Below are positions 5,563-38,192 of a stretch of 38,609 nt of DNA, one piece after another (positions within the stretch are counted from its first letter, which is position 1; each line of letters opens with the position of its first letter). Position numbers and translations under genes: made by a program. The stretch is from a virus, in the IMG/VR virus record IMGVR_UViG_3300027826_000003, positions 1 through 38,609 of that record; one strand, written 5' to 3'. The notes beneath the pieces were generated by a model. It was given only the letters and a program-made list of their open reading frames with translations, was not told the DNA's origin and made no database searches.

Positions 5563-8500
5563 TCAGAACCTCCCCTTGCCGCGCTGGCCGCCGGCCGGTC
5601 GCGGCGGATTCGGTGCGGTGTCCGCGCGCGCCCTTCGCGGCCGCGCGTCGGGCGGTGCCGGGGCTCGTGCCGGCGTCGTCGGCGGCGGTCCCGCGGTCGG
5701 CGCGAGCGTCACGCTCGCGACCGCCGGCACCGGCGCCGTGATCGGAGGCGACGGATTCAGGACGAGCGGGCCGGCGTATTCGGCCTGCACAAGTTTTTGA
5801 CGGCGATCGAACGCGAAACGCCGGCGGGTCGGCGTTGGTGTCGGTGTGGGCGTTGGTGTCGGTGTGGGGGTGGGGGTTGGAGTCGGAGTCGGGGTCGGGG
5901 TCGGCGTCGGCGTGGGGCTCGGAATGCCCATGTAATAGAGCTCGGCCCCGCCGTCCTCCGGGACCATCGCCGCGACGTTCGCCGGGTTCGCGTTCTCGCC
6001 GATCGTGCCCGTGCCGACGCTCGTTTGCAGCGCCGACGGATACACGTTCCATGCCTGCCCGTAGCTCGGGCCGCCGAACCCGTCGATCGCAAACCGCGTG
6101 TATTCGGCGACATTCATCTGCTGATCGAGGTACTGTAGCTCGGCGAGATGCGCGCGGTAGAACCGTGGCGAGCGCTGGGTCGCATGCGCGTTTTTCGCGC
6201 GGAGCGCGAAGTTGTTTCTTGAAGTCGGGTCGTACGCGTAGTACGGATCGAGGTCGGACGGGCCCGCCTCGTAATTGCAGAGCTTCACATTGCTGAACTG
6301 CCCCACGTACTGGGGGGCCGACAACAGAGCGAGCTGGCCGGCAGAGATCGCGTACCGGCCCGAATAGAGCGAGGCGAGGCCGTAGAGGTCGACGAAGTCG
6401 TCGGGATAACACTGTTCCATCCACGCGGTGATCGTCCCGGACGATAGCGCGTTGTCGTAGTGCGCGGCGGTGGGGTTCGTGTCCTGGTATCCGTCCGGCG
6501 CGAATCGGTCGAACGTGCGGCCCGTCCACAGGCACCAGTCCCCGATCGCGGGGGGCACGGTAGATTGGCCGGTCCATCCTCCCATGATGCGAATGAGCTT
6601 CGCCGGGTCGCGGCCGGTCGTCGTGTACCCGGAGCCGCCGGCCGTCAGGGTCAGGCCGGTGACCACTCCCCCGCTAACGGTCGCGGTCGCGGTGGCGCCG
6701 CTGCCGTAGCCGCCGGCGATCCGGACCGTCGGCGTCGAGCCGTACCCGAGGCCCGGGTAGTCGAGCACGATCCCGGTCACGGCGCCGCCGGCGACCGTGA
6801 CGTGCCCGGTCGCGCGCCGCGGGGCGATCTGCACCGTCGGGGCCGACGTGTACCCGCTCCCCCCGGTATTGACCGTGATCGACGTCACATGGCCGCTGCC
6901 GTCGAGATTCGCGGTCGCCGTCGCGCCGGAGCCGCCGCCGCCGGAGATCACGACGGCCGGGGGCGACGTGTAGTAAATCCCCTCGTTCGTGACCGTGATT
7001 CCCGTCACGGCGCCGCCGGAGATCGTGGCGTACGCGATCGCCAGGGCGCCTGACTGGGCGAACCCACCGTCAATCTCGACCGAGGGAATCCCGGTCCACA
7101 TCGACATGGCCAGGGCGTGACACTGCGCCGCGCGGTGGGCGTAGTAATACGACCAGCTCGGCCCGGTCTGCGCACAGGGCCAGCCGGTGGCGCCGCTCGA
7201 CGCGAGCCACTGGCCAGTCAGGTCGTTCGAATTGAGCACCATCTGCGGCACGGGCGTTTCCGCGCCGCCGTTCCAGTGCTCGTTGGTGTACTCGAAAGCG
7301 ACCGACTCGCCGGCCGAAAGTACGGCGTTGACGTCGGCGAAGGCGTCCATCACGAAGCTGTCCGTGGCCCAGACGGGAACCTGGATCCACGGGATCATGC
7401 CGCACTCGTGCGCGATCTGGACGTGCTCCTTCGTCGGGGCCGCGCCCCCGCCCATCTCAAGGGTCAGGGTTCCCGCGCCGTCCGGAGTGTGCGAGGCGAG
7501 GAGCGTCGTCGGGTCGGGTCCGCCCGATGCCTGGCTATCGGAGTAGCTCTGAAGGATGAAATGCGTCGCGTCGAGCACATAGATAATGTGCGTCGAGTCG
7601 ATCTTGGTGCAGCCGAACGTGAGCGACTCGGTCGCGGTGACGCTCGCCGCGTTCTTCAAGGTGACCTGGGTCGATGAGTCTACCGATTGAATCTGGGTGT
7701 CATACGGAATGCCCGTTCCCAGGACTTCCATGCCGTTGCGAAGGCCAGTCGTCGAGGAGAGGCCCGTCACGACGGCCGTACCGTTGAGCGTGCCCGTGAG
7801 GATCACGGATCCGGTGTCGGCGAAAATCTGCGTGTTGACGTTGAATAGGACCTGGTGGCCGGTCGCGAGCCCGTGCGGCGACGCGCAGGTGACCTTGATC
7901 ACGGAATTGTTGACCGACTGCGGAAAGACCCGCTGCGCGATGGCGAGCGTCGTCGGGTCGCTACTCGTGACCGGGTCGAACGCCGTCACGCCGATGGTGA
8001 GGATCCGCGAATCGATGTAGTACGAAAGGTTGCTGGTCGAGTGCTCGTCCGAGTAATTGGCAAAATGCGAGTTGAGCACGCCGATAAAGTGCTGCCCGCG
8101 CAGGAAGCCGCCGGGGAACTTGCTCCCGGTGATCGCGTACGGATAGGTCGGGTTATACGTCGCCAGCCGGGCCAGAAAATGGGGGTGCGCGGTGTGCGGC
8201 CAGTCGTCCGGCGTGTCGGGGTCGTGAATCCAGTTGAGGTAAATGAAGTCGTCCGTGCTGCCGCTGGACGTGCAATTCAGTTGCAGCGCCGGGTTATAGA
8301 ACGGCTTGGGCTGGCTCGTGTAGTTCGGCGTCTGCCGCCAGATGATATTGGTACCGGGGCCGCCCGTGTACGGCGGATCGCTCGACACTCCGACCGCGCT
8401 CTGGCCGCCGTCCTCGATCGCGAGCGTCGGATTGCCGGATGTGTTGAAGTTGAACGACCACTGCCCCGTGCGGTTCGCCAGGGGGAAGCCGTAAGCGTCG

Positions 8501-10644
8501 TCGCCGGTTCCTAACACGTAGCAGTTGAGGAACTGGTAATTGCAGGTATCGCCGGGCGTCGCGCTCGCGAGCTGGAGTTGGGAATTGGCGTCGGTGGAGA
8601 CGGCGTTGGCGCCTCGCCAGTAGAACCCCAGTTTCATCCGGTTCGCGAATGCGACCTGGGGGAAACTGTCGGCGAGCTCGCCGATGTTGTAGCCGACCTT
8701 GAGGTTTCGCGAGGCGCTCGAGTCGAACGGGAAGAACGTCGTATCCGTGAGGATCGGGACCGAGCGGCTGCTTTCGGGGCCGACCGTGCCGGAGTGTGCC
8801 GTGATCCACGAGTCGAGCGCGTTCAGCACGAGCGTATCGCCCGTGCTGGCGAACTTGTCGGCGACGCGCTCGATCCGGATCGCGTCGGTCGGGGTGTTGC
8901 CCGACGCGTTGTTATTGGAGATCGTGACGGTGATCGTCCCGCTCGTCGAGGTGACCGTCGCCAGGTCGCTGAAGCGATACAGGAGGTCGTTGCGGTCCCA
9001 CGTCGGGGCCTGGGTCGGGTCGAGGTCGACGTGCGTCGTGCTGTCGGCCGTGATCGTGTAACGGACCGAATTCGACCAGCCGCCGGCGCCGACGTAGCCG
9101 CCGTAGAACGTGTCGGGAAGGTTCCGGCTGACGTAATAGCTGCCGGCCGGCACTCCGGTGAACGTGTACGTGGCGGTGGCGGTGTGGTCCGTCGTGTAGG
9201 ACAGGCCGCCCGAGCCGTCGCCGTTGAAGCTGAAGAGCTGGAACGTCGCCGACTGTGCCGTGTACGGGTTCCAGGTGCCGGTACTGGTCCATCCGGTGCC
9301 CTGGTCGTCGATGATCGCGGCATGCTTCGGACTGCCGACGTAGAAGCTGACGAAGTTGTCGCCGGCGCCGCCGCTGCCGCTATACAGCGCCTGGCCGAGC
9401 GATACGGGCGTGCCCCCGTTCTTCGTGATGGTGCAGCCGGTCGAGTTGGCGCCGACGACGGGCGTCGCGTGGCCGCTGCCATCCTTGACGCAAAGCGCGA
9501 GGATGTTGCCGCCGGGCAAGAGCCCGCAATTCGGGGCTGTCCAGTCGATCACCGCTTGCGGGCTGACGATCGTGAACGGGATCGCGAGCGGCAAGAGATT
9601 GCCGCCGTTCGACACGTTCACGGTATAGCCGCCGTTGCCGTGGCCCGAACCGATCGCGAGCGTCGCGGATTCCTGGTCGGAGCCCGTCGACGAGAGCGTG
9701 ATCGTCGTCGGCGTGAACGATCCTAAGGCGCTGGTCGGCGTGAAGACGACGGGCGATCCGGGGGCCGTCGCGCGGAGCCATCGGAGCGTGACCGTCAGGT
9801 TTCCCGGCGAGTGCGCCGTGCCGCCGAACGAGAGCGAATAGAGCGCGGCGTAAGCGGGCTTCGTCGGCGGCCCGCTGACGACCGACGTGCCCGTGACGCT
9901 CCCGGAGAGCGCGCCGAGGATGCCCAGCTCGGGGCTTGCCCCGGTGATGGGCACGGCGTCGAGCAAGGGCACCGTCGACGGGAGCGAGGCGGTCGGGATC
10001 GCCACGGCCTCGATCACTTCGGCCGGGTAGCCGGCCGCGAGGTTCGTGGTGTCGGCGGACGTGAAAACGGTCGCGGTCGCAATCTGGTTTGTCAGCGTCC
10101 AGAGGCCGAAGTCGGCGATCGACATTCCGACCGGCGCCGACCAGAAGCCGTTATAGCCGAGCACGAGGTGCGCGGTCGACGATGCGAGCGAGCTGACCCC
10201 GTTCGCCACGGTCCGCGTGATCGGCACGAGCACGCCGTCGAGCCAGATGTTGAGCGGGCCGCCGCCGCCGGAATAGCCGGTCGTTCCAAACGCGTTCCAG
10301 TCGACCTCGAGATAATGCCAGAGCCCGTCGCCGTCGAGTGCCGCGAATGTGTCGCTGTTGGATTGCCAGACCTGAAAAGCCGATGCGCCGTTGGTGACGA
10401 CGAACTGAAGACGGTTCGCCGCGGCGCCGCTGTCGTACTGATAGGTGAACCAGAGCGCATTATCCGGCGCGGAGTTCCCGAACTGCGAGACGAGATTCAA
10501 AAGCCCGCTCGTACCGATCGCCGTCGTGCCGCTGGCCAGGGTAAAGGCCAAGTGAAACGCGAACCCGACCGACCCGTTCAGGAGCGTCGACGCCCCGAAG
10601 TCGATCACGTCGGTCGTCGCGGTGAATTTGCGGGCGCTGGACAT
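5563..10644 (-). CDS. Giant 1693-aa multidomain virion protein. It has an N-terminal LamG-like lectin domain, beta-rich and CBM-like domains, a clan GH-A-like TIM-barrel glycanase interrupted by four repeat modules, a (PT)15 linker and a basic Pro-rich tail.
   Basis: Single uninterrupted ORF. The LamG-like signature is WHYLEVDW..LNIWLDGVLV..LVLGYNG. FEYTNEHWN (Glu codon 7279..7281) and CNYEAGP (Glu codon 6268..6270) resemble the acid/base and nucleophile motifs of clan GH-A enzymes. The repeat modules occupy 6613..7035. Confidence 0.8.
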   Translation of the reverse strand: MSSARKFTATTDVIDFGASTLLNGSVGFAFHLAFTLASGTTAIGTSGLLNLVSQFGNSAPDNALWFTYQYDSGAAANRLQFVVTNGASAFQVWQSNSDTFAALDGDGLWHYLEVDWNAFGTTGYSGGGGPLNIWLDGVLVPITRTVANGVSSLASSTAHLVLGYNGFWSAPVGMSIADFGLWTLTNQIATATVFTSADTTNLAAGYPAEVIEAVAIPTASLPSTVPLLDAVPITGASPELGILGALSGSVTGTSVVSGPPTKPAYAALYSLSFGGTAHSPGNLTVTLRWLRATAPGSPVVFTPTSALGSFTPTTITLSSTGSDQESATLAIGSGHGNGGYTVNVSNGGNLLPLAIPFTIVSPQAVIDWTAPNCGLLPGGNILALCVKDGSGHATPVVGANSTGCTITKNGGTPVSLGQALYSGSGGAGDNFVSFYVGSPKHAAIIDDQGTGWTSTGTWNPYTAQSATFQLFSFNGDGSGGLSYTTDHTATATYTFTGVPAGSYYVSRNLPDTFYGGYVGAGGWSNSVRYTITADSTTHVDLDPTQAPTWDRNDLLYRFSDLATVTSTSGTITVTISNNNASGNTPTDAIRIERVADKFASTGDTLVLNALDSWITAHSGTVGPESSRSVPILTDTTFFPFDSSASRNLKVGYNIGELADSFPQVAFANRMKLGFYWRGANAVSTDANSQLQLASATPGDTCNYQFLNCYVLGTGDDAYGFPLANRTGQWSFNFNTSGNPTLAIEDGGQSAVGVSSDPPYTGGPGTNIIWRQTPNYTSQPKPFYNPALQLNCTSSGSTDDFIYLNWIHDPDTPDDWPHTAHPHFLARLATYNPTYPYAITGSKFPGGFLRGQHFIGVLNSHFANYSDEHSTSNLSYYIDSRILTIGVTAFDPVTSSDPTTLAIAQRVFPQSVNNSVIKVTCASPHGLATGHQVLFNVNTQIFADTGSVILTGTLNGTAVVTGLSSTTGLRNGMEVLGTGIPYDTQIQSVDSSTQVTLKNAASVTATESLTFGCTKIDSTHIIYVLDATHFILQSYSDSQASGGPDPTTLLASHTPDGAGTLTLEMGGGAAPTKEHVQIAHECGMIPWIQVPVWATDSFVMDAFADVNAVLSAGESVAFEYTNEHWNGGAETPVPQMVLNSNDLTGQWLASSGATGWPCAQTGPSWSYYYAHRAAQCHALAMSMWTGIPSVEIDGGFAQSGALAIAYATISGGAVTGITVTNEGIYYTSPPAVVISGGGGSGATATANLDGSGHVTSITVNTGGSGYTSAPTVQIAPRRATGHVTVAGGAVTGIVLDYPGLGYGSTPTVRIAGGYGSGATATATVSGGVVTGLTLTAGGSGYTTTGRDPAKLIRIMGGWTGQSTVPPAIGDWCLWTGRTFDRFAPDGYQDTNPTAAHYDNALSSGTITAWMEQCYPDDFVDLYGLASLYSGRYAISAGQLALLSAPQYVGQFSNVKLCNYEAGPSDLDPYYAYDPTSRNNFALRAKNAHATQRSPRFYRAHLAELQYLDQQMNVAEYTRFAIDGFGGPSYGQAWNVYPSALQTSVGTGTIGENANPANVAAMVPEDGGAELYYMGIPSPTPTPTPTPTPTPTPTPTPTPTPTPTPTPTRRRFAFDRRQKLVQAEYAGPLVLNPSPPITAPVPAVASVTLAPTAGPPPTTPARAPAPPDARPRRARADTAPNPPRPAGGQRGKGRF
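5827..5916 (-). repeat. Coding (Pro-Thr)x15 linker inside the 1693-aa gene.
   Basis: Codon-by-codon reading gives 15 consecutive PT dipeptides. Codons are mixed synonymous, and the 18-nt unit cgttggtgtcggtgtggg occurs twice. Confidence 0.9.
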
Positions 10645-10795: not shown

Positions 10796-11947
10796 TTACT
10801 GCGTGCAGAGCAGCGAGACGAGCCGCTTCGAATTCTCGGCCGCGACGAAGACGTCGTGGAGCAAGAGACCGCGGACGGCGTTCGCGAACGTCGTCTGCAG
10901 GCGAAGCGCCTCGATTTCGGTAATCTGCGCGGCGTAGCTGATCGCCTCGTTGTCGCCGAACAAGAGGTACTTGTTGCCGCCGCTTCGGGGAACGTGCGGC
11001 GTCTCGTACACCGCGAATCCGGCGACCATCCCGACGAAGCCGGGGGCCTCGGCCGCGGTGCGAGCGACTTCCTCGCCGCCGACCAGGCCGTACTGGACGA
11101 CCTTGTCGCCGAGCTCGCCGGCGCGCACGAAGTGCTCGGTATCCTGCAAGAGCAGACCCGTGGTGTCCGGGTCGACGATCGCCCACCGGCTCCCGGTCGT
11201 CGCCGGCACGTTGGCTTTCGAGAGGATCGACCGCGCCTGGACGAACTGCGGGTAAATGTCCGTGTTGGTCACGGTCGTACCCGTCGAGGTCGTCAGCGTC
11301 AGCGCGCTCGCGGTCGTCAGCACGACGTAGGGTGCGACGGTGTAGTTATTGCCGCCGGCCGTGATCGTGACGGTGTTGATTGCGCCGCCGGAGACGGTGC
11401 ACGTCGCGGTCGCGCCGTTGCCCGTGCCGCCGACGAACTGGATCACCGGGGCGGTGGTGTAGCCGCTGCCGCCGGAGTTGATCGTGACCGAGGTCACGGC
11501 CCCGCCGGAGATGACGGCCGTCAGGCTCGCGCCGGTGCCGGCGGTCGGAGCGCCGAGGGCGACGCCGGCCGACGAGTAGGCCGAGAGAAGCTTGGCCTCG
11601 ACCGTGTTGTTCATCGCGACGACGGCCCGCTTCATGTAGACGTCCATCGCGTTGACGTCCGACTGCGCCTTGTCGAGGTCGTCGACCTCGAACGCGAAAT
11701 ACTCGCCGTCGCTGACGGTGAAGCTTTCCTTCGTCGGCGTGAGGTCCTGGTAGCTGATCGTCGCTCCACGGGAATAGCTCCCCATGGAGATGTTGCCGGC
11801 GGTGCGGACCCACACCGTCTTGTTCTGACGGAGGTCGCCCTCCCAGTTGCGATTGACCAGGGGCAACATGACGTTGATCTGGTCGAGCTTGGTCACGAGC
11901 CGTTCGGACCACGCTTCTGAATTGAAAGCGGCCAGGTTGTTTGCCAC
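10796..11947 (-). CDS. Major capsid protein (HK97-fold, P22-coat-like N-terminus) with two inserted ~35-aa repeat modules.
   Basis: 383 aa with a GTG start 7 nt after AGGAGG. It lies immediately downstream of the scaffold-like gene. The N-terminus reads NLAAFNSEAWSERLVTKL..VNRNWEGDL..KTVWV. The inserted modules are at aa 135-210 (11318..11545). Confidence 0.8.
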   Translation of the reverse strand: MANNLAAFNSEAWSERLVTKLDQINVMLPLVNRNWEGDLRQNKTVWVRTAGNISMGSYSRGATISYQDLTPTKESFTVSDGEYFAFEVDDLDKAQSDVNAMDVYMKRAVVAMNNTVEAKLLSAYSSAGVALGAPTAGTGASLTAVISGGAVTSVTINSGGSGYTTAPVIQFVGGTGNGATATCTVSGGAINTVTITAGGNNYTVAPYVVLTTASALTLTTSTGTTVTNTDIYPQFVQARSILSKANVPATTGSRWAIVDPDTTGLLLQDTEHFVRAGELGDKVVQYGLVGGEEVARTAAEAPGFVGMVAGFAVYETPHVPRSGGNKYLLFGDNEAISYAAQITEIEALRLQTTFANAVRGLLLHDVFVAAENSKRLVSLLCTQ

Positions 11948-12614: not shown

Positions 12615-13688
12615 TCACGTCGCCGTGATCTGAAACGTCCGCGTGAGATGGTTCGTCCCGCAGCCGACGACGGCCGGCAGCGAGGATGTGAGCGTGACCG
12701 CGACGGTGAACGTCCCCGTTGCCAGCGTCGACCAGCTCAGGGTTGCCGTCGTCCCGCCCGAGTAGCTGATCGTGACGGCGAGCGGCGAATCGAACGGACC
12801 GGGGCTCGAGCTGAACGTGAGCGTCGCCGTCGGGTAGTCGGGCGAGGCCGCGATGCCGGTGATCGTGACGCTGCCGGTGATGTGCCCCGTCTGATTGGCG
12901 ATCGGGTCGAACGCCGGCGGGGTCGCCTGCTCGGAATACGTCGCGCTGAACGTCTTGATCGTCGTGTCGGAGCCGCTACAGCTCGTGCCGCCGTTGTCGT
13001 GGACCTTGACACTGATCGTCACGGTGCCCGGCGCCGTCCCCTTCATCACGAGCGTGCCGGTCGCGTTGGGGTTCGTGTAGGTGATCGTCGGGTTCGGGAT
13101 GATCGAGGTATTGGAGCTCGTCGCGCTGATCGTGACGACCTGGGTCCCGCCGTCGCCGTCGGAGATGCCCGAGAGGGCGACGTTGTACGTGGTACCCGGT
13201 ACCTGGCAAAACGACTGCGTCGAGATGCTGTTGATCGTCGGGGCGTGGTTCACGATCGGCGTCGGTGCGATCGAGCCGAGCGTGTTACTGCCGCAAAACA
13301 GCGTGAACGCCGAGACCGAGTCGAGATAGTTCGGGATGCCCGTCGTCGTCAGGTGTACCGACTGCATCGGCGAGCGGATCGTGACACTGCCGGAGAACGC
13401 CCCGAACGTCGTCGTCGTGACGTGGCCGAGCGTGACGCTCGTTGTCGCGTCCATTACGCTGATCACGTACCCGACCAGGCCGGCGCCGGTGCAGCCGACC
13501 AGGTTCCCCGAGAAATTCGCGGTGCAGATCGGGGCCGGCCCGCCCAACTCGCTCCACGTCTGCCAGATGTCCTGTTCGAGCTGCACGAGCTGGCGGCTGA
13601 AATTCGCGAGCGCGTCGTCGAGCCGCTCTTGCTTCCGCTCGAGGGCGAGCACGCGCGTCTCTTGCGGCCCGAGCGCGTCCTCGCTCAC
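12615..13688 (-). CDS. Coiled-coil plus Ig-like-domain virion protein (fibre or decoration type).
   Basis: GTG 13688 lies in a GTGA overlap with the stop of a 43-codon ORF. The product starts with a coiled coil (VSEDALGPQETRVLALERKQERLDDALANF..), followed by Ig-like repeats (..VVTISATSSNTSIIPNPTITYTNPNATGTLVMKGTAPGTVTISVKVHDNGG..). The 404-aa track model (start 13829) has low GC3 in its first 47 codons. Confidence 0.65.
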   Translation of the reverse strand: MSEDALGPQETRVLALERKQERLDDALANFSRQLVQLEQDIWQTWSELGGPAPICTANFSGNLVGCTGAGLVGYVISVMDATTSVTLGHVTTTTFGAFSGSVTIRSPMQSVHLTTTGIPNYLDSVSAFTLFCGSNTLGSIAPTPIVNHAPTINSISTQSFCQVPGTTYNVALSGISDGDGGTQVVTISATSSNTSIIPNPTITYTNPNATGTLVMKGTAPGTVTISVKVHDNGGTSCSGSDTTIKTFSATYSEQATPPAFDPIANQTGHITGSVTITGIAASPDYPTATLTFSSSPGPFDSPLAVTISYSGGTTATLSWSTLATGTFTVAVTLTSSLPAVVGCGTNHLTRTFQITAT

Positions 13689-13816
13689 TTGATACTCCGG
13701 ATCTGATTGAGCTGCTGTTGCGCCGCGACGAGCCGGCGATTGAGCTCGCGGATCGTGCGGAGGAATCGCTCGGTCCGCCGTTCGCAGCCGAGCAGCCGTC
13801 GCCAGAAAGCGCCCAT
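13685..13816 (-). CDS. Small 43-aa basic helical protein, not in the ORF track.
   Basis: ATG 13816..13814. The product is MGAFWRRLLGCERRTERFLRTIRELNRRLVAAQQQLNQIRSIK. About 35 of 43 third positions are G/C, against roughly half in the overlapping frame used by the 404-aa model. Confidence 0.5.
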   Translation of the reverse strand: MGAFWRRLLGCERRTERFLRTIRELNRRLVAAQQQLNQIRSIK

Positions 13817-13825
13817 CGTTTCGCC

Positions 13826-14644
13826 TCACGCCATCATTGGATCAGTGCACGAGCAGTCGATGTTGACGTCGGCGAACCCGTCGCCGTTCGTGTCGAGCGA
13901 GAGCGTCAGGCACGTCGCCAGGTAATCGGCCTGCGAGTGATACATGCGGGCGAGCCGGGCGTACGCCGCCGATCCCTCGCTCGTCCCGATCTGCCCCTCG
14001 CACACGAGCGCGAGCGCCTTTTTCGCCGCCGCCTCGCGGATCTGATCCGTGAGCATGAGCGTGTTGGCGTCGAGCTGCTCTTGGAGCCAGGTCGAACGAG
14101 CGCCCGACCGCCGCGGGCCGAACGCCTGCGAGCCGATCACCATCGTCATTGCGGCGACGCGGTAGTGCGCGTGCGCGATGTCCTCGATCCACGAGCGGGC
14201 CCGGCCGAGCTGCTCGGCGAAGCCGGCCTCGTCGTCGCTCGTCTGAAGCTGGCGCAGCCAGGCCCGGCCGTATTTCAGGAGGTCGGCGTAGCTGCAATAG
14301 GTCGTCGGCGCCGCCGTCGAGCCGGGCGTCGGCATGACGTCGAGCTGCGCGATCAGGATCGCGACCGGGTCCTCGGCCGACGCCGTGAGCGTCGAGTAGA
14401 CCTCGTACCGGCCGAGCGCGAGTCCGGTCGTCTGCGCGGCCGTGATCGCGATCTGTACCTTACCCTCGGTATGGTCGATCCAGGTCGTCGTCGGGCTGAA
14501 CGAGTCGGCCCGGTTGCCGCCGGGCCAGACCTCGGTCGCGAGCGTCTCGCTCCCGGTGTACGTGGTGATCACGTTGCCGTTGCCGTCGGAAATCTGAAAC
14601 GTGATCGCCAGGGCGCTCCCCTGGAAAGCTTCGTAGACGAGCAT
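13826..14644 (-). CDS. Hypothetical virion protein with an Ig-like N-terminal half and a helical C-terminal half that faintly resembles gp6-type head-tail adaptors.
   Basis: 272-aa ORF. The segment ..TTYCSYADLLKYGRAWLRQLQTSDDEAGFAEQLGRARSWIEDIA.. resembles connector-family N-termini. The functional call is weak. Confidence 0.55.
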   Translation of the reverse strand: MLVYEAFQGSALAITFQISDGNGNVITTYTGSETLATEVWPGGNRADSFSPTTTWIDHTEGKVQIAITAAQTTGLALGRYEVYSTLTASAEDPVAILIAQLDVMPTPGSTAAPTTYCSYADLLKYGRAWLRQLQTSDDEAGFAEQLGRARSWIEDIAHAHYRVAAMTMVIGSQAFGPRRSGARSTWLQEQLDANTLMLTDQIREAAAKKALALVCEGQIGTSEGSAAYARLARMYHSQADYLATCLTLSLDTNGDGFADVNIDCSCTDPMMA

Positions 14645-14647
14645 AGT

Positions 14648-14815
14648 TCAGCTCCCGAGGCCCGTGGGGTCGATCGCGCGATAGGGGTCGGGCCGCACGG
14701 TCGCGTCGATCGCACGGTAAGGGTCGGGCTGGATTGTGGGGACGACCGCGACCGCCGCCAGGCCCCCCGTGACGAGGAGCTGGGGGCTCAACATGCCGCC
14801 GACGATGATCGTCAC
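14648..14815 (-). CDS. Small 55-aa membrane protein with a duplicated PDPYRAID motif, not in the ORF track.
   Basis: GTG 14815, with AGGAG 10 nt upstream. The product is VTIIVGGMLSPQLLVTGGLAAVAVVPTIQPDPYRAIDATVRPDPYRAIDPTGLGS. GC3 is very high. The ORF fills the gap between 14822 and 14644. Confidence 0.5.
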   Translation of the reverse strand: MTIIVGGMLSPQLLVTGGLAAVAVVPTIQPDPYRAIDATVRPDPYRAIDPTGLGS

Positions 14816-14821
14816 GGTGGG

Positions 14822-15616
14822 TTAGCTCCTCGTGCTCGGGCTCGTGCCGCTGTCGAGCGTGAACGACCGGATCGTCGTCCCGGTGCTCGGCGTCTGGACG
14901 GTGTACGTGGTGCCGGAGACCGATTCCTTACCCGCCGCCGCGCAGATCGCGGCGACCAGGGCGTCGCCGATCGTCAGTTGGTTATCCGCGACCGATCCGA
15001 GGTTGCGGGGTGTGAATCCCGTCTGGCTCAGACTGATCGTGACGGCGGACGCGACGCTACCCACGGAGCCGATCACGTTGCCGGCGACGCTCCCGACCGA
15101 TCCGCCGACGTTGCCGGTCACGCTCCCGACGGAGCCGGCCAGGTTGCCGCCGACATTGCCCGTGACGCTCGCGACGGAGCCGCCGACGTTGCCGGTGACG
15201 GCCGCGACGGAGCCGGCGACGCTTCCCAGCACGTTGCCGCCGACGTTGCCGGTGACCGATGCCACTGCCCCGCCGGCGTAGGTCGAGCGGGTCGAGATTG
15301 CGGCGTCGAGGTTCGTGAGTCCGAGGCTCGTGCCGTTCGTCGGGTCGGCCGCGGTGGTGACGATCGTTTTCTCGGCCGGGACGGCTGAGGCGGCGGTGAA
15401 CAGGTAGCTGATCTGATTGCCGTTCGTGTCGGCCTGGCTCGGAGCAAAGTTGTACTGGCCATGGCCGAGCTCGGTCACGCTCCCGGTCGCCGACGCCTGC
15501 GCGGCGCCGTCGATCGAGCGGTAGGCGGTCACGGTCGCGCCGGTCAGCGCCCCGCCGGTCGTCGCGTTGATCAGCACGAAGCCGAGATTCTGCCCGGCGG
15601 TGTTCTTTCGGTACAT
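14822..15616 (-). CDS. Tail-fibre-like protein with an irregular G-[SN]-V-x / S-V-x short-repeat tract.
   Basis: The start MYRKNTAGQNLGF at ATG 15616 lies in a TGATG overlap with the upstream stop. The repeat tract is VASVTGNVGGNVLGSVAGSVAAVTGNVGGSVASVTGNVGGNLAGSVGSVTGNVGGSVGSVAGNVIGSVGSVASAV (15046..15270). Confidence 0.7.
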   Translation of the reverse strand: MYRKNTAGQNLGFVLINATTGGALTGATVTAYRSIDGAAQASATGSVTELGHGQYNFAPSQADTNGNQISYLFTAASAVPAEKTIVTTAADPTNGTSLGLTNLDAAISTRSTYAGGAVASVTGNVGGNVLGSVAGSVAAVTGNVGGSVASVTGNVGGNLAGSVGSVTGNVGGSVGSVAGNVIGSVGSVASAVTISLSQTGFTPRNLGSVADNQLTIGDALVAAICAAAGKESVSGTTYTVQTPSTGTTIRSFTLDSGTSPSTRS

Positions 15617-16470
15617 CAGTAGACTCCGATGCCGAGCGTGGAGGAAGGCGCGATCCATCCGGGGAGGAATGTGGGCGGCGGTGTCGCCGTCCCCGCCAGC
15701 ACGGCCGACCGCTGTTTGCCGGGGCGAAGGCGCCAGAATGGATTCGTGTAGAGCCGATAGACCTGAACGGCGCTGATCGGGTAACCGAAGATCGCCACGT
15801 TATCGATCACGCCGGGAAACGGATCGCCGAACGGCGATGATCCGTAATCGGCGCCCAGCATGATCGGCGTTGACGTGTAAACCAGCGGCCCCGTGACGTT
15901 CGTCACCGCGCCGACTTGCTTGCCGTTGAAGTAGCCTATGAGCGTGGTTCCGTCGTAGGTCAGGGCGACGTGATTCCAAGCGCCCGATACCAGCGTCGGG
16001 ACCGTGAACACGCCCGTGGGTGGCGAGCCGCCCGAATAGCTTGAGCCGTTGCTGATGTCGTATTCGATCGACGTGCTGTCATTGATGCGGATCAGCCACG
16101 TCATGTACGGGCTGGACCACGGCGGACCGCTGGCGGGCTTGCAGATGACCGCCGCGAACGATGGCGTAGCTGAGAGACAGAACCACGCCGAGAGCGATAC
16201 GGTGTCGCTATGAATGGCCGCGGTATCCGGGCTCGTCACGTAGCCGGTCGATCCGTTGAACGAGAGGGCATTCCCGAATTGCCCCGATGTCCAGGTGCAG
16301 CCGCCGTGGCGCGTGCCGGCCGAGACGTTTCCCGTGATGTCCGCGACGTCGCCCGTGTCCCCCCGGAACGTGCCGCGCGCGGTGTCCATCAGGAACCACG
16401 CCACCGGACCGCGCTCGCGGTGGTAAATCCGCGGCAGCGTCGGTTTTTTCGGGAACGCCGTGAGGCTCAC
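15616..16470 (-). CDS. LamG / concanavalin-A-like lectin domain protein, a candidate receptor-binding protein.
   Basis: 284 aa. The motifs GQFGNALSFNGSTGYVTS, WNHVALTYDGTTLIGYFNGKQVG and VIDNVAIFGYPISAVQV are the classic Laminin_G_3 pattern. Confidence 0.75.
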   Translation of the reverse strand: MSLTAFPKKPTLPRIYHRERGPVAWFLMDTARGTFRGDTGDVADITGNVSAGTRHGGCTWTSGQFGNALSFNGSTGYVTSPDTAAIHSDTVSLSAWFCLSATPSFAAVICKPASGPPWSSPYMTWLIRINDSTSIEYDISNGSSYSGGSPPTGVFTVPTLVSGAWNHVALTYDGTTLIGYFNGKQVGAVTNVTGPLVYTSTPIMLGADYGSSPFGDPFPGVIDNVAIFGYPISAVQVYRLYTNPFWRLRPGKQRSAVLAGTATPPPTFLPGWIAPSSTLGIGVY

Positions 16471-16856
16471 AGGTTGCTACTCGCGAGGGTCGTCGCCGCT
16501 GCCCAGGCCGTGATCGAGACGCTACCGCCGTCGTTGTTCGTGATCGTGATCTGCGCTTTCTTCGCTGCCATCGGTGGCAGGTACGGGCCGACGTAAAACG
16601 TCGTCGATGCCGTGGTCGGCAGCGTGATCGCCCCGCCGTCGTTGAAGTAGTTCGTGCCGTCGAGCGAGTAGCCGAACTGCACGGTCGGTCCGGCGCTCGG
16701 CGAGCTGCCGATCGTGACCTGCGCGCCGATCTCGGCCTCGAACGTCCCGGCCGTGGTCGTCAGGTCCACGGCCCCGGAAGAATTGCCGCCGGCCGCGATG
16801 GACGCGGGCGAGGCGTGCGTGCCGATCAGATCGCTTTCAGTGCGCGTCAAAGACAC
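16467..16856 (-). CDS. Small beta-rich virion protein (hypothetical).
   Basis: 129-aa ORF with an ATGA overlap to the downstream gene. Ser/Thr/Gly-rich with a beta-sandwich-like composition. Confidence 0.6.
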   Translation of the reverse strand: MSLTRTESDLIGTHASPASIAAGGNSSGAVDLTTTAGTFEAEIGAQVTIGSSPSAGPTVQFGYSLDGTNYFNDGGAITLPTTASTTFYVGPYLPPMAAKKAQITITNNDGGSVSITAWAAATTLASSNL

Positions 16857-16859
16857 GAG

Positions 16860-17303
16860 TTAGCTCCCCTGCGGCCGTGCCGCGATCACGTCTGCCAGCG
16901 TCGCCGGACGCCCGAGGTTTGCCGCCGCCCATGAAATCTGCGCGGGCCACGATGGATCGAGCTCCGTCGCCGTGATCACCGCCCCCACCGCGGCGGCCTC
17001 GCCGCTCGTGATCAAAGCCGGCGGGGAGCTCAGCGCCGCCAGCCAGTTGCCGATCGACACCACGTCGCGGAGGTTGATCGCCGTGATCAGTTGCGTCGCC
17101 GTGGCGAGCGACCGCACATTCGCGACCGACGCCGCCGAGAGGCAGCCCATCACATCGGCGAACGCGAACGGCTTCGCGACGGTCGGTTGTGGCGTCGGAT
17201 TGGCGACGGACGGCGCGTTCAGCGCCGTGAGAATCGCGTTGTTCGTCGGCGTCCAGTCGGTGATAAAGCCCTGAATCATAGCTGTCGGGTTCGTGCTCGG
17301 CAT
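16860..17303 (-). CDS. Hypothetical virion-module protein.
   Basis: I prefer ATG 17303 (MPSTNPTAMIQGF...), which lies 5 nt after the stop of 17309..17560. The track start at 17372 would overlap that gene by 64 nt. Confidence 0.55.
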   Translation of the reverse strand: MPSTNPTAMIQGFITDWTPTNNAILTALNAPSVANPTPQPTVAKPFAFADVMGCLSAASVANVRSLATATQLITAINLRDVVSIGNWLAALSSPPALITSGEAAAVGAVITATELDPSWPAQISWAAANLGRPATLADVIAARPQGS

Positions 17304-17308
17304 CAGAA

Positions 17309-17560
17309 TCAATCCCCCGTCATTCGATCCCGCCACCCGGAATCCCACGGCCACATTCGTTCGGCGGTCCATCGCGCGAGGTTCGCGACCGCTTCGTCGG
17401 GCGTCCTGCCGCTATGCCAGATGCCGCCGTCGTGCGGACCGATGCGCGCGATCCAGAAGCCGAGCGGCCGTTCGAATCGCTCGACCCGGATCACGTTCGC
17501 GAGCGGGATCTCATCGGCCACGGTCGGCGCTCGGCTTTCGGCTTGGCGATCGGGGATCAT
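17309..17560 (-). CDS. HicB/UPF0150-like small protein (tentative).
   Basis: 83 aa. ..IRVERFERPLGFWIARIGPHDGGIWHSGRTPDEAVANLARW.. follows the HicB N-domain pattern (x-V-x-I-E..G-x-Y-x-A..P..G..-G-x-T-x-E-E-A..N). High GC3. No obvious SD before ATG 17560. Confidence 0.45.
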   Translation of the reverse strand: MIPDRQAESRAPTVADEIPLANVIRVERFERPLGFWIARIGPHDGGIWHSGRTPDEAVANLARWTAERMWPWDSGWRDRMTGD

Positions 17561-17571
17561 TGGCGTAAGTT
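17543..17571 (+). promoter_or_regulatory. Sigma-70-like promoter for the embedded plus-strand gene.
   Basis: TTGGCG (17543-17548), a 17-nt spacer, then TAAGTT (17566-17571). The strong SD AAAGGAGGG follows at 17581-17589. Confidence 0.4.
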
Positions 17572-17593
17572 GTGCGTCAGAAAGGAGGGCGTT

Positions 17594-17824
17594 ATGCCCG
17601 CTACTTGGTCTGTCGAGAATGTCGCGACCGACTCTCAGGTGCGGATCTGCTACGGCGATCTCTGCACCGAAATGCCGTACTCTCAGGCGACGAAATTCGC
17701 CCAGCGCATCCTCGGGTTCACCGGGAGCCTTCCGCCGAACGGCCGAACGGCCGGCGCGACGAGCCGAAGCATGAAGGCCGCCGGCGGGAAGAAGGGCGGG
17801 AAGCGCGGCGGTAAGGCGTGCTGA
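17594..17824 (+). CDS. Small 76-aa protein with a Lys/Gly-rich basic tail, encoded against the late operon (moron-like).
   Basis: ATG 17594 follows AAAGGAGGG by 4 nt. The product is MPATWSVENVATDSQVRICYGDLCTEMPYSQATKFAQRILGF...KAAGGKKGGKRGGKAC. GC3 is mostly G/C. It has its own promoter-like element and a downstream hairpin. Confidence 0.6.
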   Translation: MPATWSVENVATDSQVRICYGDLCTEMPYSQATKFAQRILGFTGSLPPNGRTAGATSRSMKAAGGKKGGKRGGKAC

Positions 17825-17836
17825 CAGGTGTCACCG

Positions 17837-17871
17837 CGCCGTCCGTCGCCGACCACGGGCGACGGACGGCG
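17837..17871. terminator. Perfect 14-bp hairpin between convergent genes. It has no U-tract on either strand.
   Basis: cgccgtccgtcgcc-gaccacg-ggcgacggacggcg lies between the stop at 17824 (+) and the stop at 17880 (-). Confidence 0.45.
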
Positions 17872-17879
17872 CTCGAACG

Positions 17880-18533
17880 TTAGAAGTTTTGCGCGACGGT
17901 CGCGTAGAACGTCGTCGCCGTGATCGCGCGGAGCGTGACGATATCGGCCTTTGCAGCGGTCGTCGTGAGCGTCGGTGCGCTGCCGCCGGACCACTTGATT
18001 CCGCTGAACCACGTCACGGTACGCGAGCCCGTCCCGTCCTGGACCAGCGTCAGCTCGATCTTTTGACCGGGCGTCACGTTCGCCAGCGCGAGCGTCCGGT
18101 TTCCCGCGAGCGTCACGGTGTGGCGGTTGCTGACGCTGCAATCAAACGTGATCGTCGATCCGTCGGTATCGACCACGAGCGGCTCGTACGAGCTGTTGAT
18201 CCCCAGGAGGTTCGCCGTCCCTCCTGTCGCGAGCACGACGCTTTCGGGGAATTGCAGCACGTCGCCGGCGTTCACATTCGCGTCGACGTAGCCGGCCGGG
18301 GCGGTCGAGCTGACGGTCAGCGTCTGCGCCGACCAGGCCGTCACGTTCAGCGCCGTGATGAGCGCGCCCGAGCGAAGCACGAGCGCGTTGCAAGGGAACG
18401 AGAAGTCGCCCGACGGTCCGCAGTTGACCGATACGCTGGTGCCGCCGCTCGAACGGGCGGCGGTGACGATCGGCTGGGCGTGGATCACGTCTTCGTGAAC
18501 TTGAGTTGCCAAGGTCAGGTCTCCGTGCCCCAC
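17880..18533 (-). CDS. Beta-rich virion protein (hypothetical) immediately downstream of the portal gene.
   Basis: 217-aa ORF. The GTG 18533 start overlaps the portal end. An alternative TTG at 18512 lies 7 nt after GGAGA. Confidence 0.6.
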   Translation of the reverse strand: MGHGDLTLATQVHEDVIHAQPIVTAARSSGGTSVSVNCGPSGDFSFPCNALVLRSGALITALNVTAWSAQTLTVSSTAPAGYVDANVNAGDVLQFPESVVLATGGTANLLGINSSYEPLVVDTDGSTITFDCSVSNRHTVTLAGNRTLALANVTPGQKIELTLVQDGTGSRTVTWFSGIKWSGGSAPTLTTTAAKADIVTLRAITATTFYATVAQNF

Positions 18534-24101: not shown

Positions 24102-24104
24102 CAA

Positions 24105-30205: not shown

Positions 30206-30282
30206 CCCCGCAAAAACAAGGGTCGTTCGAAGCGCACAATTTCGGGGTTCCGCCCTTAACTCTTTTGACGAGGAGACAGGCA

Positions 30283-35636: not shown

Positions 35637-38192
35637 TCACTCGCCGTCGTCTTCCCCGCCCATCTCGCCGCCGAGCTGACGCCGGCCGGCGGTGGGTCCC
35701 TCGCTCGGCGCGCCGAAGCCGAGGCCGAACGCGGCGGCCGGCGCCGACGAGAACACCGCCGGCGCCTCCGCGATCCCGAACGGCTGCCCCACGATCGACG
35801 GCCGCTGCAGCGCCGCGCCGCTGAACGGTGCCCGACGGTTCGAGAACGTCAGCGTCGTCACGTACGACGTCGCGCCCGACCGCTCGCGGTACTCGAGGTC
35901 GACCGCGATCACCGGCACGTCGAACGAGTCCCATCCGGTGCTATACGTGCTGCCGGTGATCGAAAGTTTGTGCCCGATCAGGAGCGACGACGCGAGGAGC
36001 CCAAAGTAAGGGATCGAGCCCTCGTACACGACGTCCTTGACCGAGTCCAAAAACTCGGCCGCGAACGTGGTCATATTCGTGGCGTTCGACCCGTCCCGCC
36101 AGTCGTTGCAGGAAATCACCTTGGTGCGTTGAATCCCGAGCGCGCTGTACGACGTGCCGGCGTAGCCGCTCGACGGCTGCACGACACTGAGCGCGCCCGT
36201 GTGGACCGGCACGAACGCCTGAAAGTCATTCACCGGCGCCGGCGTCACGCCATCGACCGAGAAGACGAGCGCCGTCGGCCGGGCCGTGAGCACCGTCCCG
36301 CTCTCCGGGTCGACCGCGACGCCGATGTAGCTCTGCTGATAGGGTGCCATACCGAGCGGCGAATAAAACACCGTCCCCGCCGGCGTGCTCGTGAGCGTCG
36401 CCGCGGTGCCGTCCGAGTTCCGGAACGCGACCGGGTACGGGAAATAGTTCGCAAGCTGCGCCGCGATCGCGGCGTTCGTCACCTTGTACCGTCGGTAGAC
36501 GTAGCTCGCGCCGCCGGCGGTGCCATAGATTTGATACGACGTGTAAGAGGTCGTCGGCGCCGGCGTGTCGAGCGTGAGCGTCGACGTCCCGCCGGCCGAG
36601 AGCGCCGTGTTCGACACGATCCGCGCGGTGAAATACTGCGTGTAGGCGCTGATCGCGTCCTGACGGAGCACGATCACGCCCTGGTGCCCAGTCGGCGAGT
36701 AATCCCAGTAGTCGGAGACCCACTGGGCCTTGGTGTTTTGCGACTGCACCGTGACCTGCGTCGTCGACGGCATCGTCGTGATGGTGCCGAGGTCCGACTG
36801 GCCGACCGCCGGGCCCGTGAGCGTCACGGTCGGCGAGCTGCTGTAGCTCGAGCCGCCGGCCGTGACCGTGATGCCCGTCACGGCCCCGCCGGAGATCGTC
36901 GCCGTCGCCGTCGCGCCGGAGCCTGTCGCGTCCGTGATCTGCACCGTCGGCGCGGCGGTGTAATTGTAGCCGCTGATAATGACGGCGATCGATGCGATCG
37001 AGCCGCTCGAGACCGTGGCCTGCGCCGTCGCCGTGCCCTGGCTCTGGGTCGGCGTGGTGAAGTCGCTGGCCTGCCACTGGGATTTGGCCTGCGCGTTGGT
37101 GAGGCCGTCGTGGGCGAAGTCCTCCGAGAGCCCTCCGTCGGCGTCGCCGGAGCCCGGCCACGGCTTGAGCGAGAGCGTCACGGGCACGACCAGGTCGTGC
37201 CCCCGGATCTCACACCGCGAGTAACAGCTCGACCAGTCGGCCGTCACGCTCGGCCGCCCGACGCGCGGGTCTGATCCGTCCATCGTCAGCGTGATATCGG
37301 CCGACCAGGTCCGCGGGTCGTGAAACCGGATGTTCCCCTGCGGGTCGACCTGGACGAAGTGGTTCGGGTGGCACGATTGCACGACGCCCTCGAGCGACTG
37401 CAAGATCCGCTCGCCCTGGACGTCGATTTCAAACGGCGGAATTATCGTGAGCGCCGCGAGGTCCGTGAGCGTCGCGCTCGGCAGCGTCGAGAGGATCACG
37501 ATCGGGGCCGTCGTGTACCCGGAGCCGCCGGAGCCGAGCGTGATTCCCGTCACGGCGCCGCCGCTGACGGTCGCGGTCGCGGTCGCGCCCGATCCCCCGC
37601 CTCCGGCCAGGAGCACCGTCGGAGCGACCGCATAAGACGAGCCGCCGGCGACGATGGTAAACGAGCTCTGGACGACGCCGCCGGAGATCGTGCACGTCGC
37701 CTCGGCGCCGGTGCCGGCGCTCGAGTAATTGCCGATCCCGACGGCCGAGAGCGCGACCTTGTTCTGGCTCATCTCGAGCACGTCGGCGACGATCTGCCCC
37801 ATCGTCCGGCCGGCGCGACTCGCGATGAAGTCCGGGTCGTCCGATGCGACATTGAAGCGGGCGGTGTCCGTGAGCGTGTTCGAGTCCGTCATCGGGATGT
37901 ACTCGGCCCGCTTCGCGAGGCCGTAGCACGTCCACTCCCGGACCCACCCCAGGTGATCGTCATAGTGCGTCAGGTGCGAGCCCGTGTCGCCGCTGAAGAT
38001 CAGCGTACCGTCCTGCGTGAGCGTCACGGGCTGCGCGTCCCACGGGTCGGGGCCCGACGTCAGCGCGCCGATCGACCGCGCGAACGACAACATCGGGTAG
38101 CCGTCCTTGGCATACGGCCGGCACGTCAGGAGCGTCGTCCGGGTCGCGACGCGGTCGATCGTGGTCGAGTTGATGACGAGGACGGCGCTCAA
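35637..38192 (-). CDS. 851-aa distal tail / baseplate-hub-like protein carrying four copies of the shared repeat module.
   Basis: The TTG start lies in a TTGA overlap with the tape-measure-like stop. The repeat modules are at 37491..37715 and 36813..37025. It is the last gene of the late operon. Confidence 0.75.
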   Translation of the reverse strand: MSAVLVINSTTIDRVATRTTLLTCRPYAKDGYPMLSFARSIGALTSGPDPWDAQPVTLTQDGTLIFSGDTGSHLTHYDDHLGWVREWTCYGLAKRAEYIPMTDSNTLTDTARFNVASDDPDFIASRAGRTMGQIVADVLEMSQNKVALSAVGIGNYSSAGTGAEATCTISGGVVQSSFTIVAGGSSYAVAPTVLLAGGGGSGATATATVSGGAVTGITLGSGGSGYTTAPIVILSTLPSATLTDLAALTIIPPFEIDVQGERILQSLEGVVQSCHPNHFVQVDPQGNIRFHDPRTWSADITLTMDGSDPRVGRPSVTADWSSCYSRCEIRGHDLVVPVTLSLKPWPGSGDADGGLSEDFAHDGLTNAQAKSQWQASDFTTPTQSQGTATAQATVSSGSIASIAVIISGYNYTAAPTVQITDATGSGATATATISGGAVTGITVTAGGSSYSSSPTVTLTGPAVGQSDLGTITTMPSTTQVTVQSQNTKAQWVSDYWDYSPTGHQGVIVLRQDAISAYTQYFTARIVSNTALSAGGTSTLTLDTPAPTTSYTSYQIYGTAGGASYVYRRYKVTNAAIAAQLANYFPYPVAFRNSDGTAATLTSTPAGTVFYSPLGMAPYQQSYIGVAVDPESGTVLTARPTALVFSVDGVTPAPVNDFQAFVPVHTGALSVVQPSSGYAGTSYSALGIQRTKVISCNDWRDGSNATNMTTFAAEFLDSVKDVVYEGSIPYFGLLASSLLIGHKLSITGSTYSTGWDSFDVPVIAVDLEYRERSGATSYVTTLTFSNRRAPFSGAALQRPSIVGQPFGIAEAPAVFSSAPAAAFGLGFGAPSEGPTAGRRQLGGEMGGEDDGE

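What the first reader, a model, noticed from the sequence alone, without database searches (positions are those of the whole stretch)
11318..11545. One ~35-aa repeat module is shared by the major capsid protein and two tail proteins (10 copies in all)
The consensus is G-[ST]-G-A-T-A-T-[AC]-x-[VI]-S-G-G-[AV]-[VI]-T-[GS]-[IV]-T-[VIL]-x(2)-G-G-[SN]-x-Y-T-x-A-P-x-V-x-[ILF].
- The major capsid protein has two copies (aa 135-210).
- The 1693-aa fibre has four (6613..7035).
- The 851-aa distal tail protein has two pairs (37491..37715 and 36813..37025).
In the capsid protein the pair interrupts an otherwise P22/HK97-like sequence, in the way an insertion domain does. DNA identity between copies is limited to short stretches such as gtcacggcgccgcc and acggtcgcggtcgcggt, so the copies are old and kept at the protein level. 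One surface module displayed on both head and tail suggests a common ligand, for example weak glycan adherence, or a common assembly or stabilising role.
Basis: seen in the sequence. Interest (0 to 1): 0.65.

Follow-up and report, generated by a model that had tools for sequence, protein, structure and literature searches.

The report
Accessory beta-domain inserted in phage capsid protein
A small two-repeat beta domain, very common in phage tail and bacterial surface proteins but never catalogued or solved, has been spliced into this phage's capsid protein as an optional extra, much as antibody-like domains are on other phages.

Summary
A profile built from six copies finds exactly ten copies in the six-frame translation. 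All lie in three minus-strand genes: the capsid protein (2), a 1693-aa fibre-like protein (4) and an 851-aa virion protein (2+2).

The working unit is a pair of repeats (~76 aa), predicted with high confidence as a compact six-strand beta domain. In the capsid protein (HK97 fold, sequence relative of mycobacteriophage Che8 gp6) the pair sits just after the spine helix.

About half of 120 related capsid-protein clusters lack it cleanly, at up to 78% identity elsewhere. It was gained or lost roughly 6-13 times, evolves faster than the shell and has no charged residue.

The domain is not special to this phage. The profile hits 15,812 protein clusters, including cyanophage baseplate and neck proteins, an E. 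coli phage tail sheath, Pseudomonas tail-tube proteins and secreted bacterial giants. It has no Pfam or NCBIfam model and no PDB match.

The best reading is a promiscuous, dispensable, probably surface-displayed accessory domain, analogous to phage Ig-like domains. Outward orientation, a "common ligand" and the labels "fibre" and "distal tail protein" are untested. This is a new variant of a known kind, of moderate interest.

The parts
10796..11947 (-). Major capsid protein gene (383 aa), HK97 fold of the Che8-like type
   Evidence: PHROG 267/283 'major head protein'. AlphaFold2 model pLDDT 86.6, with Foldseek top hits all phage capsids. Profile hit to Che8 gp6, PDB 8E16, E = 3.6e-19.
11318..11548 (-). 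The finding: a two-repeat (~76 aa) accessory beta domain inserted after the spine helix (aa 134-210)
   Evidence: HMM domains at i-E 4e-18 and 1e-18. pLDDT 92-97 in the full model. Absent from about half of the homologous clusters at exactly this site. No D/E/K/R residues.
5563..10644 (-). 1693-aa fibre-like virion protein immediately downstream of the capsid gene (function not verified)
   Evidence: Only module-based PHROG hits and no Pfam hit. No PDB sequence relative.
6613..7059 (-). Four tandem repeats (two pair-domains), aa 1196-1344 of the 1693-aa protein
   Evidence: HMM domains. The whole array is missing from the homologous protein of relative L001.
35637..38192 (-).
   Evidence: Only module-based family hits. 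Conserved family in related ~38-kb phages.
37491..37718 (-). Pair-domain 1 of the 851-aa protein (aa 159-234); the closest relative of the capsid insert
   Evidence: HMM. Position conserved in homologues down to ~50% identity. 57% identical to the capsid pair, against 43% for the other pairs.
36819..37031 (-). Pair-domain 2 of the 851-aa protein (aa 388-458)
   Evidence: HMM. Position conserved in homologues.

Best explanation
The interval encodes a compact ~76-residue all-beta domain made of two ~38-residue repeats, each a long hairpin plus a short strand. [quoted passage not shown] The phage is a complete, temperate, ~38.5-kb genome whose nearest genomic relative is a prophage in an Isosphaeraceae (Planctomycetota) genome.

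The domain belongs to a very large, uncatalogued family. That family is attached to many virion scaffolds (capsid, sheath, tube, baseplate wedge, neck, fibres) and to secreted bacterial surface proteins.

Shown:
- In the capsid protein it is a dispensable cassette.
- It was probably acquired once, perhaps from the first pair of the lineage's 851-aa virion protein, and then lost or exchanged repeatedly.

Inferred:
- It projects from the outer capsid surface, at about 415 copies if T=7, as a built-in decoration.
- Like the Ig-like domains of Hoc, phi29 gp8 or lambda gpV, it gives weak multivalent adhesion to polysaccharide-rich surfaces, with at most a secondary stabilising role.
For: - Ten copies in three genes, and only there.
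- The pair is the unit. Counts are 2, 4 and 2+2. The pair alone folds at pLDDT 88, and BFVD models superpose at TM 0.75-0.89 and rmsd about 1-2 A.
- Clean presence/absence at one site. 63-65 of 120 capsid clusters carry the insert and 55 lack it, at up to 78% identity elsewhere.
- 8 state changes on a flank-only NJ tree (6-13 over 30 bootstraps), against 31 for shuffled states.
- The insert evolves faster than the shell: 53% versus 69% mean pairwise identity, and lower in 88% of pairs. It has 0 charged residues, against 57 in the rest of the protein.
- The same family occurs in a phage tail sheath (Alux-21, Pfam PF04984 + PF17482) in a circularly permuted register, which implies adjacent termini.
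- It also occurs in Pseudomonas tail-tube proteins, in cyanophage gp7/gp8 baseplate and neck proteins, and in about 20 PHROG families.
- 33 of the 150 top carriers have signal or lipoprotein peptides, so the domain is extracellular in bacteria.
- Extra domains of sheath proteins lie away from the tube-contact side (PMC9230969).
- Ig-like domains show the same five-class distribution and are linked to carbohydrate adhesion (PMC7602432).
- The end of the spine helix is a known variable site: the G-loop and the Appa-like loops (10.1101/2022.09.09.507160).
- Capsid inserts are closest to pair 1 of the 851-aa family: 0.50-0.55 identity, against 0.39 to unrelated pairs.
Against: - Orientation, outside or inside, could not be computed because model coordinates are not exposed.
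- No binding data exist.
- Family-wide conserved positions look structural, with no evident ligand site.
- The site is equivalent to the G-loop, which in HK97 takes part in assembly contacts. A stabilising role is therefore not excluded.
- In long bacterial arrays the copy number is not consistently even. The 'pair = domain' rule may not hold everywhere.
Confidence: 0.6

Rival explanations
1. Capsid-stabilising insertion domain. The pair contacts neighbouring subunits, for example the E-loop of the adjacent subunit. It would substitute for cross-links or cement proteins, as the P22 I-domain or the T4 gp23 insertion domain do.
For: - The site is at the end of the spine helix, equivalent to the HK97 G-loop, which matters for assembly (10.1101/2022.09.09.507160).
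- The Che8-type shell has no cross-links or decoration proteins (same paper).
- No separate decoration gene is evident next to the capsid gene.
- The capsid subgroup has its own conserved signature (IQFVGG.GNGATATC, GGNNYT[VI]AP), which could be a docking surface.
Against: - Relatives at 78% identity with genomes of the same size (38.8 kb) lack it entirely, and it was lost or gained several times.
- It evolves faster than the shell.
- Che8 itself shows the bare fold is sufficient.
Confidence: 0.2
2. Functionally neutral passenger or spacer. It is a very foldable, termini-adjacent mini-domain that spreads by recombination among virion genes. It is tolerated wherever a surface loop accepts it. 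In tail proteins it serves only as a rigid spacer.
For: - Huge promiscuity and long tandem arrays, with up to 42 profile matches in a single protein.
- Conserved positions are all core or turn residues.
- Frequent loss from the capsid protein and from the fibre.
Against: - It is retained at the same capsid site across lineages down to ~50% flank identity. It is retained in the 851-aa family at fixed positions down to ~50% identity. This argues for selection.
- Displaying ~415 extra domains per particle has a cost.
Confidence: 0.15
3. Compositional artefact. A G/T/A/V-rich low-complexity or beta-helix-like stretch in a high-GC genome is mistaken for a domain.
For: 67% GC genome. The insert is 20% Gly and 20% Thr.
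Against: - Position-specific conservation: G3, G26, Y29 and P33 are each 95% or more conserved over 1,921 repeats.
- No hits in the other five frames or in other genes.
- Confident discrete fold.
- Also found in low-GC cyanophages and E. coli phages.
Confidence: 0.02
4. Interior-facing domain that interacts with DNA, scaffold or ejection proteins.
For: None directly. Orientation was not computed.
Against: - No charged residues.
- The same domain sits on exterior positions of sheath proteins and on secreted bacterial proteins (PMC9230969).
- As far as I recall, every characterised capsid-protein insertion domain is external.
Confidence: 0.03

Closest known systems
Ig-like accessory domains of tailed phages (I-set, FN3 and Big_2; the survey summarised in PMC7602432; for example T4 Hoc, phi29 gp8 BIG2, lambda gpV C-terminus)
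   Same: - Small all-beta domain.
- Found on the same classes of virion protein: tail fibres, baseplate wedge initiators, major tail proteins, capsid-protein insertions.
- Also found on bacterial surface proteins.
- Dispensable, and horizontally shuffled.
   Different: - No Pfam Ig-family hit at E <= 1.
- Six strands built from an internal duplication, rather than a 7-9-strand sandwich.
- No significant PDB structural match, including to Ig folds.
- No binding data.
P22 coat protein I-domain and other capsid-protein insertion domains (T4 gp23/gp24)
   Same: A genetically inserted, autonomously folding extra domain in an HK97-fold capsid protein.
   Different: - No sequence or fold similarity.
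- The site is the end of the spine helix rather than within the A-domain (the P22 site is from memory).
- Here, near relatives lack the domain, whereas as far as I recall the I-domain is fixed in P22-like phages.
Mycobacteriophage Che8 gp6 capsid protein (PDB 8E16; Pfam PF25209 Phage_capsid_4)
   Same: Sequence-detectable homologue of the shell part (E = 3.6e-19) and best structural match. A minimal HK97 fold with a continuous spine helix (10.1101/2022.09.09.507160).
   Different: - Che8 has no insertion or embellishment.
- The window protein scores below the PF25209 gathering cut-off (20.1 versus 27 bits), because the insert splits the match.
HK97 G-loop and the variable loop of Appa-like capsid proteins at the end of the spine helix (10.1101/2022.09.09.507160)
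   Same: Same topological position, known to tolerate variable-length elaborations.
   Different: Those are loops or hairpins of a few to a few tens of residues, not a folded 76-residue domain.
Additional domains of phage tail sheath proteins (PMC9230969)
   Same: The same module is inserted in the Alux-21 sheath between the N-terminal part and the PF04984 domain. Such domains lie away from the tube-contact side and are considered non-essential.
   Different: The additional sheath domains described in that paper are mostly Ig-like sandwiches. This module is not described there, as far as the passages retrieved show.

Membership tests
HK97-fold major capsid protein (Che8-like, PF25209) | HK97 fold: N-arm, E-loop, spine helix, P- and A-domains | tested here: met
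   AlphaFold2 model pLDDT 86.6. All 50 Foldseek hits shown are HK97-fold shell proteins: phage and viral capsids, a gene transfer agent capsid and encapsulins. The best is Che8 8E16 at E = 1.7e-10.
HK97-fold major capsid protein (Che8-like, PF25209) | Sequence homology to a solved member | tested here: met
   Profile of 95 homologues against PDB: Che8 gp6 at E = 3.6e-19, covering profile positions 7-297.
HK97-fold major capsid protein (Che8-like, PF25209) | Pfam PF25209 score at or above the gathering cut-off | tested here: not met
   20.1 bits against a 27-bit cut-off for the window protein. Many homologues, with and without the insert, carry a precomputed PF25209 hit. The shortfall is probably because the insert splits the match.
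Capsid-protein insertion (I-) domain | A contiguous segment within a loop of the fold that is absent from otherwise colinear relatives | tested here: met
   Alignments A1, A3 and A4. 55 of 120 clusters lack aa ~134-211 cleanly.
Capsid-protein insertion (I-) domain | Autonomously folded domain | tested here: met
   Prediction only. The pair alone gives pLDDT 88 and pTM 0.75, with the same strand pattern as in the full protein.
Capsid-protein insertion (I-) domain | Located on the outer capsid surface | not testable with these tools
It is inferred from composition, from the other contexts of the domain and from precedent.
Phage Ig-like domains (I-set, FN3, Big_2) | Match to an Ig-like Pfam family, or an Ig beta-sandwich fold | tested here: not met
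   No Pfam hit at E <= 1. Foldseek against PDB gives a best E of 2.6, with TCR hits at probability about 0.1. The topology is six strands from an internal repeat.
Phage Ig-like domains (I-set, FN3, Big_2) | Promiscuous occurrence on fibres, baseplate, major tail proteins, capsid proteins and bacterial surface proteins | tested here: met
Carbohydrate-binding module or lectin | Homology to a known CBM or lectin family, or demonstrated glycan binding | tested here: not met
   No Pfam, NCBIfam or PDB match. Binding itself cannot be tested here.
Beta-helix / low-complexity solenoid repeat | A continuous solenoid of short coils without discrete domain boundaries | tested here: not met
   The predicted structure is two hairpin-plus-strand units forming a discrete domain. 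Copies in this phage come in twos. Viral models superpose on the 78-residue unit. Parity is inconsistent in long bacterial arrays.

The most novel reading that the evidence does not exclude
The pair-domain is a previously unrecognised glycan- or surface-binding fold. In this planctomycete phage lineage it acts as a mobile cassette that moves between tail, fibre and capsid genes. This switches whole-particle multivalent adhesion on and off: about 415 head copies plus the tail copies. The repeated gain and loss among close relatives would then reflect selection by host envelope or environment.
Probability: 0.2. Interest if true: 0.7.

Novelty: new variant of a known kind. Interest (0 to 1): 0.42.

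Why it matters
It defines a very large domain family (at least 15,800 clusters at 50% identity) that has no Pfam or NCBIfam model and no solved structure. That family decorates many kinds of phage virion protein as well as bacterial surface proteins.

This phage lineage offers a natural experiment. Close relatives exist with and without the domain in the capsid protein and in the fibre. Its role in adhesion, stability or neither can therefore be tested directly.

It also adds a second insertion site, the end of the spine helix, to the catalogue of ways the HK97 fold is embellished. It also gives a compact domain with apparently adjacent termini that could be useful for capsid display.

Tried and rejected
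- Sequence searches of the PDB with the capsid pair and with a 27-sequence pair profile gave only chance-level hits (designed Pizza proteins, an antibody light chain).
- Foldseek of the pair model against the PDB found nothing significant. The weak resemblance to the N-terminal beta-barrel of F1-ATPase subunits (TM 0.35-0.42, probability <= 0.13) is not evidence.
- Pfam and NCBIfam scans of the three proteins and of nine other carriers found no model for the module.
- A full-text search for the motif 'GSGYT' with 'phage', and three topical literature searches, found no description of the domain or of this phage group.
- The Jabs preprint was read for capsid insertions but only concerns Dit insertions.
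- I looked for model coordinates to compute inside/outside orientation. None are exposed.
- A nucleotide alignment of insert boundaries between insert-plus and insert-minus relatives was too diverged to show how deletion occurs.
- PDB sequence searches of the 1693-aa and 851-aa proteins gave nothing useful, so their 'fibre' and 'distal tail' roles remain unverified.
- The last large-database search, with the pair profile, was biased to short proteins. It yielded few names beyond 'phage tail tube protein'.

Full report

Yes. GC3 analysis picks them as the true genes.

A profile HMM from six copies was run against all stop-to-stop segments of all six frames. It finds ten significant copies, with independent E-values from 1e-18 to 1e-4. 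There are two in the 383-aa capsid protein, four contiguous in the 1693-aa protein, and two separate pairs in the 851-aa protein. The next best hit anywhere has E = 0.2.

The two quoted DNA strings exist, with 3 and 2 occurrences against about 0 expected. They occur only in the fibre and 851-aa genes. They encode the GGAVT and TATATV motifs, so they are what codon bias gives for a conserved peptide.

**2. Anatomy**

Even-numbered copies are close to the consensus (GSGATATATVSGG...), while odd-numbered copies are more diverged. In this phage the copies always come in twos.

AlphaFold2 models the capsid protein at mean pLDDT 86.6, with the insert at 92-97. Each repeat is a long beta hairpin plus a short strand. 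The pair alone folds the same way, at pLDDT 88.

Predicted structures of viral proteins (BFVD) superpose on the 78-residue unit at TM 0.75-0.89 and rmsd about 1-2 A. So the functional unit is a ~76-residue, six-strand domain with an internal duplication.

The insert has no Asp, Glu, Lys or Arg, against 57 in the rest of the protein.

**3. The host protein**

The capsid protein has an HK97 fold. It is a sequence-detectable relative of mycobacteriophage Che8 gp6 (8E16, E = 3.6e-19). Che8 gp6 is described as a minimal HK97 fold with a continuous spine helix and no embellishments (10.1101/2022.09.09.507160).

The insert follows the spine helix (H98-126 in the model) and precedes the first A-domain helix (H231-244). 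This is the position where HK97 has its G-loop and where Appa-like capsid proteins have a variable loop (same paper).

**4. The insert is an optional cassette**

Of 120 homologous clusters, 63-65 carry two copies at this site and 55 lack the segment cleanly. Those lacking it are about 305 aa and up to 78% identical over the shared residues.

On a tree built from flank columns only, presence and absence are interleaved. There are 8 parsimony changes (6-13 in 30 bootstraps), against about 31 for shuffled states.

The insert evolves faster than the shell. Mean pairwise identity is 53% versus 69%, and it is lower in 88% of pairs.

Capsid inserts form a coherent group (0.70 mean identity). They are nearest to pair 1 of the 851-aa family (0.50-0.55), compared with unrelated pairs (0.39). 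This fits one old acquisition, possibly from within the genome, followed by repeated loss or allele exchange.

**5. The other two proteins**

Homologues of the 851-aa protein keep both pairs at fixed positions down to about 50% identity. Some have 6-8 copies.

The relative carrying the insert-less capsid allele is P0050, on a 38,769-bp contig. Three things hold for it:
- It still has four copies in its 851-aa homologue.
- Its fibre homologue lacks the whole four-copy array. tblastn aligns window residues 1020-1174 and 1344-1557 to adjacent stretches of L001.
- The HMM finds no module anywhere in L001.

So head and fibre copies are facultative, while those in the 851-aa protein are fixed.

Outside the modules, neither large protein matches any Pfam, PHROG or PDB entry. 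The labels 'fibre' and 'distal tail protein' are therefore unverified.

**6. How widespread is the domain?**

A profile of the five window pairs was searched against 1.84 billion representatives. It hit 15,812 proteins at E <= 1e-3, and 914 at E <= 1e-30. A single protein can have up to 42 matches.

About 20 PHROG families contain the domain: baseplate wedge, neck, tail fibre and 'virion structural protein'.

Among cultured phages it is mostly in T4-like cyanophages (gp7/gp8 baseplate proteins). It is also in Ralstonia RP13, Serratia MQ-4 and E. coli phage Alux-21.

The Alux-21 carrier is a tail sheath protein (PF04984 + PF17482). The module is inserted there in a circularly permuted register, which implies adjacent termini, as an insertion domain requires. 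Pseudomonas 'phage tail tube proteins' (PF16460) also carry a pair.

33 of the 150 top carriers have signal or lipoprotein peptides. One Chryseobacterium protein is just a signal peptide plus one pair. The domain is therefore also extracellular in bacteria.

There is no Pfam or NCBIfam model and no PDB match by sequence or fold.

**7. Mechanism**

Shown:
- It is a discrete, dispensable, fast-evolving, uncharged insertion domain.
- It belongs to a promiscuous extracellular/virion family.

Inferred:
- It is displayed on the outer capsid surface. Extra domains of sheath proteins lie away from the tube side (PMC9230969), and known capsid-protein insertions are external.
- It acts like the phage Ig-like domains. 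Those occur on the same five classes of virion protein and are linked to weak carbohydrate adhesion (PMC7602432).

Against a single 'common ligand': the family-wide conserved positions are Gly turns, alternating small or hydrophobic residues, one Tyr and one Pro. That is a fold signature.

A stabilising role remains a live rival because the site is equivalent to the G-loop. The existence of same-sized insert-less relatives argues against necessity.

**8. Context**

The window is a complete circular genome. Bases 1-127 repeat at 38483-38609. It is temperate, with an integrase at 30265-31227. Its nearest genomic relative is a prophage in an Isosphaeraceae MAG at 67% capsid-protein identity.

**9. 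Verdict**

This is a new variant of a known kind: a promiscuous accessory domain used as a capsid-protein insertion. What sets it apart is a different, uncatalogued fold, a different insertion site, and an unusually clear natural presence/absence series. Interest is moderate.

Noticed in passing
window 1-127 and 38483-38609: The first 127 bases are repeated exactly at the end. The window is therefore a circularly closed, complete genome of about 38,482 bp. The 851-aa gene lies downstream of the structural module across the junction.
   Followed up: yes
window 30265-31227 (+); L003: A tyrosine integrase (PF00589) marks a temperate phage. The closest genomic locus is a prophage in a 685-kb contig of an uncultured Isosphaeraceae (Planctomycetota) MAG, which also has a pair in its capsid protein and a pair in a 477-aa downstream protein.
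   Followed up: partly
window 24105-24635 (-) and 23478-24104 (-): The phage encodes a sigma-70/ECF-like factor (weak hits to regions 2 and 4, both just under Pfam's cut-offs) next to a matrixin-like M10 zinc metallopeptidase. Both lie upstream of the terminase.
   Followed up: no
window 12615-18533 (-): A ~5.9-kb block of genes sits between portal and scaffold. It includes a ConA-like/Laminin_G_3 protein (15616-16470) and a 217-aa ORF with PHROG hits to tail-fibre C-termini (17880-18533). Relatives L001 and L003 run from portal to scaffold with at most one small ORF between. One block gene (13826-14644) has its homologue downstream of the fibre in L003.
   Followed up: partly
window 5827-5916 (-) and about 7270-7300 (-): The 1693-aa protein has a (PT)15 linker (aa 1577-1606) followed by a Pro/Arg-rich tail. 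It also has a 'FEYTNEHWN' motif just before the module array, which resembles the NEP motif of clan-A glycosidases. This hints at a depolymerase domain, but no family hit supports it.
   Followed up: no
L083 5554-6978 (Escherichia phage Alux-21, PQ589898): The annotated 'tail protein' is a tail sheath protein (PF04984 + PF17482). It carries the same module at aa ~150-225 in a circularly permuted register.
   Followed up: yes
P0424, P0402 (Pseudomonas 'phage tail tube protein', PF16460); P0430 (Chryseobacterium): Short tail-tube proteins begin with a module pair. A 131-aa bacterial protein consists of a signal peptide plus a single pair, the smallest natural form of the domain seen here.
   Followed up: partly
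P0274, P0304, P0305, P0318 (homologues of the 851-aa protein): Some homologues have expanded to 6-8 copies, and others have only 2. Copy number in this protein family also varies, though the two core positions are fixed.
   Followed up: no
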